6,084 nucleotides of DNA, from IMG/VR virus record IMGVR_UViG_2703718769_000003, one strand, 5' to 3'. The first letter of the stretch is position 1, and every line of letters starts with the position of its first letter. Below, piece after piece: positions 920 to 5,904 of this stretch. Under the pieces are notes generated by a model that saw nothing but the letters and a program-made list of their open reading frames with translations, was not told the origin of the DNA and made no database searches. The DNA comes from a virus (Duplodnaviria > Heunggongvirae > Uroviricota > Caudoviricetes). A program made the translations under genes and the position numbers.

Positions 920-1295
920 GCTCAGCCGTTCCGTGCTGTATCATGGCTGTCGCCAGTGGTGACGGCACCAGAACACGCATGCCCCGGTACGTCAGTTCAA
1001 CGGGACGGCCTGTCTCCGGGCAATACCCCATCACATGCAGGCATTTCCGCACACGGACCGCTTTAACATCATCCGTAGCATCAGTGTTGTACAACTGCTC
1101 ACCATCGTCTGTGTGATTTTGCTCTGACCAGCTCTCATCACCAGGCATAATGCCCTCCCGGGAAGCAGCAAGCTCCTCTTCCCACTCAGACACACGTTGC
1201 GCAATATCCGCAGCACTCCCCGACATATCCGCCTCGCGCCCCAGCAGGCCAGCCAGTTGACGAAGACGATTCAGATTTTCTTCTTTTGTTGCCAT
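912..1295 (-). CDS. FI: DNA packaging / head assembly protein, lambda FI-like (about 127 aa from the ATG at 1293-1295)
   Basis: ORF track gives 912..1343 from an upstream GTG. I place the start at the ATG at 1293-1295 (MATKEENLNRLRQLAGLLGRE...), which aligns with the recalled lambda gpFI N-terminus (MTKDELIARLRSLGEQL...), has a GGGGG Shine-Dalgarno 5-6 nt upstream, and lies downstream of the terminator-like hairpin. An acidic central region (EWEEELAA...DDGEQ...DATDD) is also FI-like. The C-terminal third is less similar to lambda as I recall it. Confidence 0.75.
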   Translation of the reverse strand: MATKEENLNRLRQLAGLLGREADMSGSAADIAQRVSEWEEELAASREGIMPGDESWSEQNHTDDGEQLYNTDATDDVKAVRVRKCLHVMGYCPETGRPVELTYRGMRVLVPSPLATAMIQHGTAEHA

Positions 1296-2816: not shown

Positions 2817-3419
2817 TCATGGCATGGCCATGAGCATTTTCACGTCCGCATCACCGTCTGCTGACGTCTGTGACACGCCCCCATGTACCGCTGCCGGTGA
2901 ATGGTTCGCCATGATGCGTTCAAACAGGGCGGTTGTGGATGCAGAGATAGGCTCTGCCTTACCTGATCCCGCAGCCAGCACAGCCCGGGCATTCTCCACG
3001 GTCATGCCCGGGCAGGCAGCCAGCTGTTCAGCCTGCGCCTCAGCCCCTTTTGCCTCATCCAGGGCCATGATCTGATCACGGAGTGAGGGGCCGGTATCTG
3101 CCTGTGGTGAAGCAGCCAGGATAGGGCTGGCTTTTTCCACCGTCATCTCCGGCATCGCCGCCAGCGTTGCCGCCAGTTGTTCACGACCTTTAGCCTCTTC
3201 ACACGCCATAATGCGATCGGCTTCACTCTGCGAGGATGCCACCGGTTGCTGTGGTGCTGCCGCGGACAGAATCGCCCGGGCCTGTTCAACGCTCATGCCC
3301 TGTTGTCCTGCCAGCATCGTGGCAAGCTGTTCACGTCCTTTCGCTTCCTGACATGTCAGGATCCCCATCACTCTCTGGTTCTCCTGCGCGGCGGCTTCCG
3401 TTGCAGTTAATTGCGGCAT
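2817..3419 (-). CDS. Nu3: Nu3-like scaffolding protein, translated from an in-frame internal start within C (about 200 aa, sharing the C-terminus of C)
   Basis: In-frame ATG at 3417-3419 (residue M302 of C; MPQLTATEAAAQ...) is preceded on the minus strand by AGAGGAGG with a 4-nt spacer, a near-consensus Shine-Dalgarno embedded in coding sequence. The predicted ~200-aa product matches the size and nested C/Nu3 arrangement of lambda. An alternative in-frame ATG at 3630-3632 (M231, MQQRIDAAHRMF) has only a weak Shine-Dalgarno. Confidence 0.6.
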   Translation of the reverse strand: MPQLTATEAAAQENQRVMGILTCQEAKGREQLATMLAGQQGMSVEQARAILSAAAPQQPVASSQSEADRIMACEEAKGREQLAATLAAMPEMTVEKASPILAASPQADTGPSLRDQIMALDEAKGAEAQAEQLAACPGMTVENARAVLAAGSGKAEPISASTTALFERIMANHSPAAVHGGVSQTSADGDADVKMLMAMP

Positions 3420-4322
3420 AGTGCCTCCTCTGGCATTACTGTTCAGCGCCGTGGCCATCACACTGATGGCATCCGACGCATTGATTAATTCATCCGCCAG
3501 CCCGGCCTCAATACCGGACTGACCTTCAAAAACGGCGGCCTCTGTTCCCGTGACGGCATCCACAGACAGACCGGTATACATCGCCACTTTTTCGGCAAAC
3601 ATCCGGTGTGCCGCATCAATCCGCTGCTGCATGTCCTGGCGAACTTCTGCCGGCAACGCTTCAAACTGATTGCCATCCACCTTATGCGCCCCGGCGTAAA
3701 TCAGCGTGATATCCACACCGGCCTGCGCCAGATGACCGGCATAGCTGACATGGCTCATCATCACGCCAATGGAGCCGATACGGGATGTCTGGGTAACCAG
3801 CCGTCGGGAGCAGGCCGACGCCAGCAGCATGGCTGCAGAACAGGCCGTGTCATTGCACAGTGCCCAGACCGGCTTCTGCTGACGGAGGCGGTAAATCATG
3901 TCAGCGCAGTCAAACGCGCCGGCGGCCTGCCCGCCCGGACTGTCAATGTCCAGCAGTACGCCACGCACCTGGCTATCCGCCATTGCCTGCTGAAGACAGG
4001 CGACAATGCCGTCATAGCCTGTCATTCCGGAAAAGGGCCGCAGCCCCCCCAGCCGGTGCACCAGCGTGCCTGTCACCGGCAGTACAGCAATGCCGTTCAC
4101 CACCCGGTAAACACGGGCCGGTCGTTTTCCTCCGGCCATGTACTCGTCCGTTTCAGCCAGCATTCCGGGAGCATCAAGCTGTACCTGCTGTTGTGGTACC
4201 GAAAGACTTGCTGCCCCCATCTCGCGCCCGAGCGCGCAAAAGAAAACCCGCGCATAGGCGGGCTCCAGAAGCAGCGGTTCATTGAATGCTGCGGCAATAA
4301 TGTGTGAAAGATTACGTCTCAC
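2817..4322 (-). CDS. C: Prohead (head maturation) protease, lambda C-like, with an S49/ClpP-fold protease domain in the N-terminal ~300 aa and a repeat-containing scaffold-like C-terminal region (501 aa ORF; likely GTG start at 4320-4322)
   Basis: ORF track 2817..4322 (-). N-terminus RNL.HI...AFNEPL.LEPAYARVFFCAL and the central block GVLLDIDSPGG.AAGAFDCADMIYRLRQ.KPVWAL.ND.ACSAAMLLASACSRRLVTQTSRIGSIGVMM.H...LIYAG.HKVDGN match recalled lambda gpC. The start overlaps the B stop (4312-4314) by 11 nt, with an AGAGGAGA Shine-Dalgarno about 10 nt upstream of the GTG. Longer than lambda C (439 aa) because of the repeat expansion in the C-terminal region. Confidence 0.88.
   Translation of the reverse strand: MRRNLSHIIAAAFNEPLLLEPAYARVFFCALGREMGAASLSVPQQQVQLDAPGMLAETDEYMAGGKRPARVYRVVNGIAVLPVTGTLVHRLGGLRPFSGMTGYDGIVACLQQAMADSQVRGVLLDIDSPGGQAAGAFDCADMIYRLRQQKPVWALCNDTACSAAMLLASACSRRLVTQTSRIGSIGVMMSHVSYAGHLAQAGVDITLIYAGAHKVDGNQFEALPAEVRQDMQQRIDAAHRMFAEKVAMYTGLSVDAVTGTEAAVFEGQSGIEAGLADELINASDAISVMATALNSNARGGTMPQLTATEAAAQENQRVMGILTCQEAKGREQLATMLAGQQGMSVEQARAILSAAAPQQPVASSQSEADRIMACEEAKGREQLAATLAAMPEMTVEKASPILAASPQADTGPSLRDQIMALDEAKGAEAQAEQLAACPGMTVENARAVLAAGSGKAEPISASTTALFERIMANHSPAAVHGGVSQTSADGDADVKMLMAMP
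2970..3380 (-). repeat. Three diverged in-frame tandem repeats of about 150 nt (50-51 aa) within the scaffold region of C/Nu3, each encoding a motif like IM..xEAKGREQLA..LA..PGMTVE.AR.ILAA
   Basis: Protein-level copies at about residues 318-352, 370-404 and 417-451 of C. At DNA level the core (c/t)tgttca recurs at 3024-3030, 3177-3183 and 3327-3333 (spacing 153 and 150 nt) with similar flanks (gtcatgcccgggcaggcagccagctgttca / cgccgccagttgttcacg / gtggcaagctgttcacg). Confidence 0.7.
3420..3431 (-). promoter_or_regulatory. Internal ribosome-binding site (AGAGGAGG) within the C coding sequence, positioned for Nu3 initiation
   Basis: Plus strand 3420-3431 agtgcctcctct is the reverse complement of AGAGGAGGCACT, immediately 5' of the in-frame ATG at 3417-3419 on the minus strand. 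Confidence 0.6.
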
Positions 4323-5904
4323 GTGGTGTTGTCTCCTCTTCCGGCCTGCGGCTCTCCGCTATCTGCTGCTGATACGCCTGTGCTATCCACACCGGACGTG
4401 AGAGTCCGGCCTTTTCCCGCTCTGCGGATTCCCTGACCTGCTGGCGGAAAATGTCCTGATAATCCTCACCCATCAGCGCCAGCTCTTTCTCATACGTGCT
4501 CAGTCCGGAATCAATACGCATCACCGATTCCTGGACTTCCTTGAGCCCGTCAATGGCCATTCTTCCGGCACCAATCCACTCGGCCCGTGACCAGGCTGAA
4601 CGCGCCTGATAAAAATCAAAACGCGCCCGTGGCGGACGAATAATCCCCCGAAGAAGTGCCTCTTCCAGCCAGCAGGAAAACATCTGCGTGGCCAGCCGGG
4701 ACGCAATAAATTTTCGTCGTCCCATAAAATAGCGCCACGACTCATTGGCGGAGGCGCGGGCACTTGAATAACTGACCTTCGAGTAATCACGGGACAACTG
4801 TTCGTAGGAAACGCCAAGACCGGCGGCGATATACCGCAGCAGCGCCTGTTCAAGCGCCGAAAATCCATTGTCTGAATCCTGCGCGGTCTGCAGTTTCAGA
4901 TCATCCCCGGGGAAAAGGTGCGGAATTTTGACACCACCCAGCGTCACGCTATTCGTGTCATACCAGGTGGAGAACTTCTCCAGAATATTAATAAGCGGAT
5001 TATCCTTCTGCCCCTGCGGCGCACCGGCGATATATTCAAAGGCCTTTTCGGTATCAAGTTCACTTTCAATCGTCGCTGCATACATCGCCCTCACTATGGC
5101 CGACTGAAGCTGTGTTGCCTGCAGGGAATCGAGCATCTTCAGCCGTTCCATGACGCTGTAAAACTGATTAGCCCCACGGGTCTGCCCGTCCTCCACCGGC
5201 TCGAAAATATGCAGCATGGCCGGGCGCCCGGTGGGAAGTTCACGCGGGATCCGTTCCCATCGTCCACTACCAGAGAACGGAAAATCATCCTCACAGATAT
5301 GGTACGCGACGGCACGGCCATATCGATCGACCTCCACACCGGCCCGCAGAAAACGGTTCCCCATACCGTGTCCAGGCGTGTCCACCCGTTTCGGACTCAC
5401 GGCTTTAAAACGCGTACGGAATAACTGCGTGGTTTCCGTATCCCAGACCGGCTGCACAAAGATTTCGCCGTTAAACGCATGAACGCCCACACCTTCACGG
5501 ATAAATTCCGTAAACGTGCGTTTCCCTTCCACGTCGATCTCGCCAGACATCCCTTCTGCGTATTCCGACCAGGCCGCCTCCACCTCATCGACAAAACTTT
5601 TTGCCGCAGTCTCCCGCATCCCCAGCCAGCGCCAGTTCGGACGGTAGCTGATCAGAAACATATGCCCGACAATATGATCCTTATGCAGGGCCACCGCATT
5701 AGCCGCTATCCCGTTATTGCGTACCAGATCATCTGCACGGGCATTCCCCAGACGCAACGCGGGCAGCAGGGCCGCATCGGCACTCTGCGCCGGTGGCAAC
5801 CACTCCGCCATTTGCCCGCCAAATCCTGCACCGCCCCCGTGGTAGCTGAGGCTCTCCCGAAGCGGAACGCCGTTCACATCAATCAGGACAGGCGTTCGTT
5901 TCAT
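4312..5904 (-). CDS. B: Portal protein, lambda B-like (530 aa)
   Basis: ORF track 4312..5904 (-). Size close to lambda gpB (533 aa) with long recalled identities (YHGGG.GFGGQ, DAALLP, GNARADDLVRNNG.AANA, FEPVEDGQTRGAN.FYSVME..KMLD.LQ.TQLQSAIV.AMYAATIESELDT, LLRYIAAGLGVSYEQLSR.Y, GRMAIDGLKEVQE.VM.I..GLSTYEKE). ATG at 5902-5904 follows 2 nt after the upstream ORF's TGA (5909-5911), with a GGGAGTGAGG Shine-Dalgarno-like sequence overlapping the upstream gene's end. Confidence 0.95.
   Translation of the reverse strand: MKRTPVLIDVNGVPLRESLSYHGGGAGFGGQMAEWLPPAQSADAALLPALRLGNARADDLVRNNGIAANAVALHKDHIVGHMFLISYRPNWRWLGMRETAAKSFVDEVEAAWSEYAEGMSGEIDVEGKRTFTEFIREGVGVHAFNGEIFVQPVWDTETTQLFRTRFKAVSPKRVDTPGHGMGNRFLRAGVEVDRYGRAVAYHICEDDFPFSGSGRWERIPRELPTGRPAMLHIFEPVEDGQTRGANQFYSVMERLKMLDSLQATQLQSAIVRAMYAATIESELDTEKAFEYIAGAPQGQKDNPLINILEKFSTWYDTNSVTLGGVKIPHLFPGDDLKLQTAQDSDNGFSALEQALLRYIAAGLGVSYEQLSRDYSKVSYSSARASANESWRYFMGRRKFIASRLATQMFSCWLEEALLRGIIRPPRARFDFYQARSAWSRAEWIGAGRMAIDGLKEVQESVMRIDSGLSTYEKELALMGEDYQDIFRQQVRESAEREKAGLSRPVWIAQAYQQQIAESRRPEEETTPRET

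What the first reader, a model, noticed from the sequence alone, without database searches (positions are those of the whole stretch)
3417..3431. Near-consensus Shine-Dalgarno embedded in the protease gene marks a likely Nu3-type internal translation start
Inside the C coding frame, AGAGGAGG sits 4 nt upstream of the in-frame ATG at 3417-3419 (M302). A consensus ribosome-binding site inside a gene is unlikely by chance and matches the lambda arrangement in which the scaffold Nu3 is made from an internal in-frame start in C. The predicted product is about 200 aa and would contain all three scaffold repeats. A second in-frame ATG (3630-3632, M231) lies nearer where I recall the lambda Nu3 start aligning but has a weak ribosome-binding site, so which start is used is uncertain.
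Basis: partly seen in the sequence, partly recalled or inferred. Interest (0 to 1): 0.55.

Follow-up and report, generated by a model that had tools for sequence, protein, structure and literature searches.

The report
Nested scaffold gene start in protease gene
The ribosome-binding site and ATG inside this prophage's head-protease gene are real and almost certainly start a separate 200-residue scaffolding protein, but the same nested gene has been annotated in the near-identical phage 21 since 1993, so the finding is correct and already known.

Summary
On the minus strand, AGAGGAGG (3431-3424), a 4-nt spacer and an in-frame ATG (3419-3417, codon 302 of the 501-aa C-like gene) open a 200-aa product that shares C's C-terminus and holds all three repeats.

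The window is an E. coli prophage head operon about 96.5% identical to phage 21. Phage 21 records already annotate "gene 6 / scaffolding protein" with an RBS at exactly this codon.

The bare motif is not beyond chance (4 found, 2.3 expected). The support comes from other evidence:
- It is the strongest anti-SD pairing of 364 candidate starts on the strand.
- It lies 9 residues past the S49 protease domain.
- The Met and the SD are conserved down to about 33% identity, while the surrounding linker varies freely.
- The SD-forming GGA is the only Gly codon identical in seven diverged lineages.
- In 84 non-redundant fused homologs, the best internal start falls at this junction in 46 (7.9 expected).

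M231 is rejected: no SD, inside the protease fold, not a conserved Met. Lambda also has AGGAGG-N4-ATG at 5342, which aligns with M302.

The parts
3424..3431 (-). Shine-Dalgarno AGAGGAGG (core AGGAGG at 3424-3429) for the nested start. It is encoded by the Arg298-Gly299-Gly300 codons AGA GGA GGC of the long ORF.
   Evidence: Sequence read. It has the strongest anti-SD duplex (-12.0 kcal/mol) of 364 start-codon contexts on the strand. GGA at Gly299 is the only one of 20 invariant Gly columns with the same codon in 7 diverged lineages. Phage 21 annotates an RBS at the same place.
3417..3419 (-). Internal in-frame ATG (Met302 of the C-like ORF), the predicted initiation codon of the scaffold protein. 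A 4-nt spacer, CACT, lies at 3420-3423.
   Evidence: A Met is present within 2 residues of this column in every homolog examined, in an otherwise hypervariable linker. It is the same codon as phage 21 gene 6.
2817..3419 (-). Nested ORF: a 200-aa acidic scaffold protein (phage 21 gp6 / lambda Nu3 homolog) that shares its C-terminus with the protease. The stop codon is at 2817-2819.
   Evidence: BLASTP against the lambda 131-aa product gives 55% identity over the repeat, E = 3e-18, with three separate matches. PHROG 8399 'head scaffolding protein' matches at E = 3.6e-35.
2817..4322 (-). Long ORF: a 501-aa lambda-C-like prohead protease fused to the scaffold region, with a GTG start.
   Evidence: 96% aa identity to phage 21 gp5 and 58% to lambda C.
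4332..4340 (-). SD AAGAGGAGA of the long ORF, 9 nt upstream of its GTG start (4320-4322). That start overlaps the portal gene's last codons and stop (4312-4322).
3444..3887 (-). Peptidase S49 domain (residues 146-293). SppA structural homologs align over residues 77-290. The domain ends 9 residues before Met302.
   Evidence: Pfam PF01343, E = 1.4e-35. PDB SppA chains 3rst and 4kwb.
3249..3352 (-). Scaffold repeat 1 ('Tri1 box' of phage 21).
   Evidence: Coordinates mapped from the M81255.1 annotation. Protein repeats are 47-61% identical to one another and to lambda's single copy.
3102..3212 (-). Scaffold repeat 2 ('Tri box').
2958..3071 (-). Scaffold repeat 3 ('Tri3 box').
3630..3632 (-).
   Evidence: SD energy is -2.8 kcal/mol. 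It lies inside the S49 domain. Its column is M/L/F/Y/I in homologs.

Best explanation
The site is the translation start of a nested scaffolding-protein gene, the counterpart of phage 21 gene 6 and lambda Nu3, inside the prohead protease gene of a phage-21-like E. coli prophage.

Ribosomes that start at the GTG at 4322 make the 501-aa protease-scaffold fusion. Ribosomes that bind the AGGAGG at 3429-3424 and start at the ATG at 3419 make only the C-terminal 200 aa. That product begins 9 residues after the S49 protease fold and consists of a short linker, three roughly 45-aa repeats and an acidic tail.

Because the two proteins share a C-terminus, the protease carries the same capsid- and scaffold-interacting region as the scaffold, so it would be co-assembled into the procapsid. 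The stronger SD and the ATG (against GTG for the long ORF) would give an excess of scaffold over protease.

What is shown here: the sequence anatomy, homology, position at the domain boundary, and evolutionary conservation of the SD and ATG at the RNA level. What is inferred from established lambda biology and not tested here: that the site is used, the protein ratio, and the assembly role.
For: 1. Identity with prior annotation. The window's C gene is 96.5% identical to phage 21. Both phage 21 records annotate an RBS and a nested CDS beginning at codon 302 of gene 5. N15 gene 6 begins at the homologous codon 311 and is described as an 'internal in-frame translational start within gene 5'.
2. 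Strength. The anti-SD duplex of -12.0 kcal/mol ranks 1 of 364 candidate starts on the strand and exceeds all real gene starts in the window, which range from -3.9 to -9.4.
3. Position. The site is 9 residues after the S49/SppA homology ends.
4. Conservation in near and mid-range relatives. GGAGG-N4-ATG is kept in 67 loci at 94-97% identity and in clades at 64-67% identity. Lambda and phi80 keep it too. Meanwhile the preceding residues vary (NAR/NVR/HDT/NSK/KTK/NTT/NKT/RLS/TLGG).
5. Constraint at the RNA level. Where Gly-Gly is absent, the SD is encoded by Gln-Glu or Glu-Glu codons instead (L075, PspYZU01, RcMcLean). Of 20 invariant Gly columns in 7 lineages with near-saturated synonymous sites, only Gly299 keeps one codon. 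That codon is GGA, the rarest Gly codon in the window's genes (27 of 145).
6. Family-wide test. In 84 non-redundant (<80% identity) fused homologs from diverse bacteria, the best internal in-frame start lies within -5..+30 aa of the S49 end in 46, against 7.9 expected (binomial P about 2e-25). 81 of the 84 have a start codon there, and 77 of those are ATG.
7. Split versions. In 14 of the 17 homologs whose protease ORF stops at the junction, the scan found a separate downstream ORF of at least 170 aa near the stop (within 70 nt downstream, or overlapping the ORF end), and most carry an SD.
8. Homology of the product. The nested product matches the lambda Nu3 region and PHROG 'head scaffolding protein'.
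Against: There are no expression data of any kind for this window or, as far as I could retrieve, for phage 21 gp6; its RBS is labelled 'putative'.

The bare motif is not rarer than chance in this G+C-rich window. The Arg-Gly-Gly peptide alone gives a mean of -8.0 kcal/mol, so codon choice contributes only P = 0.028.

The 4-nt spacer is at the short end of the usual range. Predicted mRNA accessibility of the site is only at the 82nd percentile of positions in the gene, no better than some real starts.

The reference lambda records put nu3 elsewhere, at 5132. I could not retrieve the primary literature that fixes the lambda Nu3 N-terminus.
Confidence: 0.9

Rival explanations
1. The scaffold protein starts at Met231 (3632-3630), the position close to where lambda's nu3 is annotated in GenBank and RefSeq. 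That would give a 271-aa product including the last roughly 60 residues of the protease domain.
For: Lambda records J02459 and NC_001416 annotate nu3 at 5132 (Met239), which aligns 4 residues downstream of window Met231. HK630 and phage 434 copy this start.
Against: There is no SD before Met231 (-2.8 kcal/mol). The residue lies inside the S49 fold. The Met231 and lambda-Met239 columns are M/L/F/Y/I/C/V across homologs, and the window itself has Ile at the lambda-Met239 column. Lambda's own 5132 site has only a weak GGGAG 11 nt away (-6.9), against AGGAGG at 5342 (-10.8). The phage 434 record that keeps 5131 carries a note beginning 'real Nu3 start ...'. Lambda-type records disagree among themselves, and one annotates a 233-aa version.
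Confidence: 0.03
2. There is no internal initiation. The SD-like string is a by-product of a Gly-Gly linker (or a translational pause site at a domain boundary), and the scaffold region acts only as part of full-length C, or is released from it by proteolysis as in P2 gpO.
For: The peptide Arg-Gly-Gly by itself yields a fairly SD-like RNA (mean -8.0 kcal/mol in synonymous permutations). GGAGG-N3-9-ATG occurs at chance frequency in the window. Other phage groups do fuse protease and scaffold without a nested start (my own knowledge of P2 gpO; not tested here).
Against: The constraint is on the RNA and not on the peptide. The GGA codon is fixed in 7 lineages while the other 19 invariant Gly codons drift. 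Gly-Gly is replaced by Gln-Glu or Glu-Glu codons that still spell an SD. An in-frame ATG accompanies the SD at the right distance in 77 of 84 non-redundant homologs. In split homologs a separate gene starts at the same junction. A pause site would need neither the ATG nor the fixed spacing.
Confidence: 0.06

Closest known systems
Phage 21 gene 5 / gene 6 (M81255.1, 'Bacteriophage 21 head gene operon'; OL657228.1)
   Same: 96.5% nucleotide and 96% protein identity. Same 501-aa long ORF, same nested start at codon 302 with the same AGAGGAGGCACTATG, same 200-aa product and the same three 'Tri' repeats.
   Different: There are about 18 amino-acid differences across the long ORF, for example Ala297 here against Val in phage 21, just upstream of the SD. 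The window is a prophage variant found in E. coli chromosomes. The neighbouring ORF1 is mosaic relative to phage 21.
Lambda C / Nu3
   Same: S49 protease followed by a scaffold region, with a GTG start for C. AGGAGG-N4-ATG sits at the aligned Met (lambda M309, coordinate 5342). Gene order is portal-C/Nu3-D-E. Overall identity is 58%, and 55% over the repeat.
   Different: Lambda has one repeat copy and a 131-aa junction product (13.4 kDa), against three copies and 200 aa here. Lambda's database nu3 start is 5132 (201 aa), which has no counterpart here.
N15 gene 5 / gene 6 (and phi80 gene 5)
   Same: N15 gene 6 is explicitly annotated as an internal in-frame start at the homologous junction codon (311). 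phi80 has GGAGGAACTATG at the same codon.
   Different: The product is 137 aa with a single repeat. phi80's record does not annotate the nested gene at all.
Herpesvirus UL26 / UL26.5 (protease and nested scaffold sharing a C-terminus)
   Same: It works alike: a shorter, more abundant scaffold protein shares its C-terminus with a protease-scaffold fusion, which targets the protease into the procapsid (established knowledge; not tested here).
   Different: The protease fold is unrelated (assemblin, not S49). In herpesviruses the nested product comes from a separate promoter and mRNA, not from an internal Shine-Dalgarno site. This is not a family member.

Membership tests
Lambda C/Nu3-type (phage 21 gp5/gp6-type) nested protease-scaffold gene pair | The N-terminal part of the long ORF is an S49 (SppA-like) serine protease domain. 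| tested here: met
   PF01343, E = 1.4e-35, residues 146-293. SppA PDB chains align to residues 77-290.
Lambda C/Nu3-type (phage 21 gp5/gp6-type) nested protease-scaffold gene pair | An in-frame internal start codon with its own Shine-Dalgarno, downstream of the protease domain, giving a product that shares the long ORF's C-terminus. | tested here: met
   AGAGGAGG-CACT-ATG at 3431-3417, codon 302, 9 residues past the domain, -12.0 kcal/mol.
Lambda C/Nu3-type (phage 21 gp5/gp6-type) nested protease-scaffold gene pair | The nested product is homologous to Nu3 / gp6. | tested here: met
   96% identity to phage 21 gp5/gp6. 55% identity, E = 3e-18, to lambda's junction product. PHROG 8399 'head scaffolding protein', E = 3.6e-35.
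Lambda C/Nu3-type (phage 21 gp5/gp6-type) nested protease-scaffold gene pair | Gene order is portal, protease/scaffold, decoration protein, major capsid protein. | tested here: met
   Phage_portal_2, Peptidase_S49, HDPD and Phage_cap_E on consecutive minus-strand ORFs.
Lambda C/Nu3-type (phage 21 gp5/gp6-type) nested protease-scaffold gene pair | The internal start is conserved at the protease/scaffold junction across the family. | tested here: met
   In 46 of 84 non-redundant homologs the best internal start is at the junction (7.9 expected), and 77 of 84 have an ATG there.
Lambda C/Nu3-type (phage 21 gp5/gp6-type) nested protease-scaffold gene pair | A separate polypeptide is actually made from the internal start. 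| not testable with these tools
   This needs N-terminal sequencing, mass spectrometry or initiation-site ribosome profiling.
Lambda C/Nu3-type (phage 21 gp5/gp6-type) nested protease-scaffold gene pair | The product acts as a procapsid scaffold and is removed by the protease. | not testable with these tools
   Inferred from lambda genetics and biochemistry (Ray & Murialdo 1975 and Medina et al. 2010, as cited in PMC3224144 and PMC10695390).
Nested start at the lambda GenBank nu3 position (Met239-equivalent, inside the S49 fold) | A Met with an RBS at the column of lambda Met239, or at nearby Met231. | tested here: not met
   The window has Ile235 at the lambda-Met239 column. Met231 has no SD (-2.8 kcal/mol). 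Neither column is a conserved Met.
Protease-scaffold fusions without nested initiation (P2 gpO-like) | No internal RBS or start at the protease/scaffold boundary. | tested here: not met
   A strong, conserved SD plus ATG is present at the boundary.

The most novel reading that the evidence does not exclude
The junction start (protease domain end + about 10 residues, SD + ATG) is an ancestral and nearly universal feature of S49 protease-scaffold genes across Proteobacteria. On this reading the reference lambda annotation of nu3 (5132, 201 aa) is misplaced, and the real product is the 131-aa, 13.4-kDa protein starting at 5342. RefSeq would then be omitting this essential nested gene systematically: in every listed RefSeq row for this junction, which occurs in 1,867 of 5,426 complete E. 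coli genomes, only 'S49 family peptidase' is annotated. Specialists appear to know this already (the N15 annotation and the 'real Nu3 start' note in the phage 434 record), so it would be a correction to databases, not a discovery.
Probability: 0.75. Interest if true: 0.3.

Novelty: already known. Interest (0 to 1): 0.15.

Why it matters
For this window it matters little biologically. It confirms a textbook arrangement: a scaffold gene nested in frame within the prohead protease gene, in a very common E. coli prophage head module. The same start has been in GenBank for phage 21 since 1993.

The practical value is for annotation.
- Automated pipelines label this locus only as 'S49 family peptidase' and miss an essential structural gene.
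- Lambda-type records disagree on the nested start. Three different starts are annotated.
- The comparative data here point consistently to the junction Met, which in lambda is 5342 and not 5132.
- The rule 'SD + ATG within about 20 residues after the S49 domain' held in most of the 84 diverse homologs and could be used to annotate scaffold genes automatically.

Tried and rejected
1. Literature on the experimentally determined N-terminus of lambda Nu3 or phage 21 gp6. Nine full-text searches and several look-ups by id gave nothing that states the start. Medina 2010 and 2011, the lambda ribosome-profiling paper and the Casjens-Hendrix review are not held. My recollection that the Catalano laboratory describes gpNu3 as about 13.4 kDa matches the computed 13,394 Da of the 5342 product. 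That remains unverified memory and is not used as evidence.
2. Bare motif statistics. GGAGG-N3-9-ATG is not enriched in the window, so I rejected it as an argument.
3. mRNA accessibility of the RBS. The site is at the 82nd percentile, M231 is at the 55th, and real starts range from the 74th to the 99th. This is too weak to discriminate.
4. PDB. No solved structure contains a Nu3-like chain that would show a construct boundary.
5. Exact-sequence look-up. The window's own 200-aa and 271-aa products are not in the protein collection. The phage 21 200-aa and lambda 131-aa products are.
6. I did not run structure prediction or the large protein-database searches. The domain boundary was already fixed by Pfam and SppA homology, and the answer would not have changed.
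7. The other in-frame GGAGG...ATG, in ORF1 (1146-1158), is not conserved in phage 21 and is treated as chance.
8. The CII-box pattern next to the start occurs at chance frequency.
Full report
**What the window is.** All long ORFs lie on the minus strand and form a lambda-type head operon.
- Portal: 5904-4312, Phage_portal_2.
- A 501-aa ORF: 4322-2817, GTG start, Peptidase_S49 at residues 146-293.
- Decoration protein: 2780-2433, HDPD.
- Major capsid protein: 2375-1347, Phage_cap_E.
- Three more ORFs follow, read here as head-completion and tail genes (not family-scanned).

The 501-aa gene is 96.5% identical in DNA to phage 21 (M81255.1, OL657228.1) and to many 'lambda-like' E. coli phages. A 261-nt stretch around the finding occurs in 1,867 of 5,426 complete E. 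coli genomes, in some at 100% identity. In all 12 rows listed it is annotated only as 'S49 family peptidase'. The window is therefore a phage-21-type prophage head module.

**The observation.** On the minus strand the sequence reads gcc-AGA-GGA-GGC-ACT-ATG-CCG-CAA. AGAGGAGG is at 3431-3424 and the spacer CACT at 3423-3420. The ATG is at 3419-3417, in frame as codon 302. The product is 200 aa, 20.5 kDa, pI 4.65, and contains the three roughly 45-aa repeats. The second ATG (3632-3630) is codon 231. Every coordinate and number in the finding is correct.

**Is it more than chance?** The motif alone is not. GGAGG-N3-9-ATG occurs four times in the window against 2.26 expected, and 36 of 200 shuffles reach four. 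The peptide Arg-Gly-Gly makes the RNA SD-like whatever the codons, with a mean of -8.0 kcal/mol. The observed -12.0 is reached in 2.8% of synonymous permutations. Other measures are more telling.
- The site has the strongest predicted pairing with the 16S 3' end of all 364 ATG/GTG/TTG codons on the strand. It is stronger than every real gene start in the window, which range from -3.9 to -9.4. M231 scores -2.8.
- It lies 9 residues after the end of the S49/SppA homology, at the boundary between protease and scaffold region. M231 lies inside the protease fold.

**Prior annotation.** Both phage 21 records annotate a 'putative' RBS and a nested CDS ('gene 6', 'scaffolding protein') starting at codon 302 of gene 5. 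The sequence there is identical, AGAGGAGGCACTATG, and the three 'Tri boxes' are annotated too. N15 annotates gene 6 as an 'internal in-frame translational start within gene 5 (assigned by similarity with lambda)' at codon 311. That codon is the homologous junction Met.

GenBank and RefSeq lambda place nu3 at 5132 (Met239, 201 aa). However, lambda also has ctcTCAGGAGGGCGAATG at 5342 (Met309). That is AGGAGG with a 4-nt spacer, in an invariant alignment column with window Met302. The 5132 site has only a GGGAG 11 nt upstream (-6.9 against -10.8).

The Met231 and lambda-Met239 columns are ordinary hydrophobic positions (M/L/F/Y/I/C/V) in homologs. Lambda-type records are inconsistent.
- 5132 is used in most.
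- Lambda imm21 annotates a 233-aa version.
- The phage 434 record keeps 5131 but carries a note starting 'real Nu3 start ...', cut off in the output.
- PHROGs contains both a 131-position 'head scaffolding protein' family and a 201-position 'capsid assembly protein' family.
- The 131-aa lambda product is called as a gene on 165 contigs.

I could not retrieve the primary papers that fix the Nu3 N-terminus. The computed mass of the 5342 product, 13,394 Da, agrees with my unverified recollection of the published size of gpNu3.

**Comparative evidence that the RNA signal is under selection.**
- Among 80 IMG/VR loci plus lambda, GGAGG-N4-ATG is retained in all 67 loci at 94-97% identity, with two SD variants (AGAGGAGG and ACAGGAGG). 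It is also retained in clades at 64-67% identity (AAAGGAGG, ACAGGAGG). The residues just upstream vary freely.
- One clade (L075/L082) instead has AGGAGA-N5-ATG two codons upstream.
- In phi80, Gifsy-1, Alteromonas P24, Pseudomonas PspYZU01 and Rhodobacter RcMcLean (down to about 33% identity), the best internal in-frame start is always 7-13 residues after the S49 end. Where Gly-Gly is missing, Gln-Glu or Glu-Glu codons supply the purine run.
- Seven lineages have third-position identity at conserved four-fold codons of 0.35-0.47 between the main lineages (0.63-0.64 within the L072-L074 clade). Across them, 20 Gly columns are invariant, and only Gly299 keeps the same codon in all seven. That codon is GGA, the rarest Gly codon in these genes.
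- I mapped the S49 domain end in 226 loci from viral and bacterial contigs, which reduced to 101 at <80% identity. Of those, 84 have a C-terminal extension of at least 60 aa.
- In 46 of the 84, the best-scoring internal in-frame start of the whole gene falls within -5..+30 residues of the domain end, and 45 fall within 0-19. The expected number is 7.9 (binomial P about 2e-25).
- 81 of the 84 have a start codon in that window. 77 of those are ATG, and 63 have a duplex of -6 kcal/mol or better.
- In the 17 homologs whose protease ORF stops at the junction, the scan found a separate downstream ORF of at least 170 aa in 14, starting within 70 nt of the stop (or overlapping the ORF end) and usually preceded by an SD. 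The internal RBS of the fused genes therefore occupies the position of an ordinary gene start.

**Mechanism.** These steps are inferred from lambda biology as cited in PMC3224144 and PMC10695390 and from general knowledge.
- Two initiation sites on one reading frame give a low-abundance protease-scaffold fusion (GTG start, overlapping the portal gene's end).
- They also give a higher-abundance scaffold (ATG with the strongest SD in the operon).
- The shared C-terminal region lets the protease co-assemble with scaffold and capsid protein into the procapsid, where it later degrades the scaffold.
- The herpesvirus UL26/UL26.5 pair follows the same logic by a different route.

**Rivals.**
- A start at M231 is very unlikely (0.03).
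- 'No internal initiation; the SD is a by-product of the linker peptide or a pause site' is unlikely (0.06). The constraint is on codons and not residues, the ATG and spacing are co-conserved, and split homologs start a gene at the same point.

**Verdict.** The novelty class is 'already known'. The only added value is the comparative demonstration that the junction start is family-wide, and that lambda's database nu3 start is probably misplaced.

Noticed in passing
L003 (lambda NC_001416) 2433 against 2643, i.e. lambda 5132 against 5342: The reference lambda records annotate nu3 at 5132 (201 aa; weak SD, inside the S49 fold, non-conserved Met). The conserved AGGAGG-N4-ATG is at 5342 (131 aa, 13.4 kDa). 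Lambda imm21 annotates a third start (233 aa), and the phage 434 record carries a truncated note 'real Nu3 start ...'.
   Followed up: partly
window 3300-3560 and 1,867 E. coli genomes: This junction occurs in 2,917 places in 1,867 of 5,426 complete E. coli genomes. In the 12 RefSeq rows shown it is annotated only as 'S49 family peptidase', so the nested scaffold gene goes unannotated by the automated pipeline there.
   Followed up: partly
window 3401-3414, + strand: TTGCAGTTAATTGC, a perfect TTGC-N6-TTGC CII-box pattern, lies on the strand antisense to the C gene, 2 nt from the internal ATG. The phage 21 record OL657228 annotates it as a CII binding site by pattern match. The degenerate pattern occurs twice in the window against 1.2 expected, so it is probably chance.
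   Followed up: partly
window 1146-1158, minus strand (inside ORF 912-1295): A second in-frame internal GGAGGG-N4-ATG (-10.8 kcal/mol) sits at codon 50 of the ORF1 / FI-position gene. It is not conserved in phage 21. Phage 21's ORF1 also diverges completely from the window's after about residue 40, so this gene is mosaic.
   Followed up: partly
window 2817-3419; L003, L085, L075, L076: The nested scaffold product varies in length and repeat number within one head-gene family: 131 aa in lambda (one repeat, aligned), 200 aa in the window and phage 21 (three repeats), 137 aa in phi80 and N15, 197-206 aa in the Gifsy-1-like clades, and 236 aa in the L075 clade. Repeat copy number outside lambda, phage 21 and the window was not counted.
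   Followed up: no
window 4312-4322, minus strand: The C-like gene starts with GTG (as in lambda), and its first codons overlap the last 11 nt of the portal gene including its TAA stop. This is consistent with translational coupling and low expression of the long form.
   Followed up: no
L122, L125, L127, L128, L142, L148, L152, L171 and others: In 17 non-redundant homologs the protease ORF stops 0-6 residues (occasionally up to 25) after the S49 domain. A separate ORF of at least 170 aa, highly charged and with a conserved N-terminal 'FAHL' motif in most, starts near the stop in 14 of them. This is a split version of the protease-scaffold arrangement. Its homology to Nu3 was not tested.
   Followed up: no
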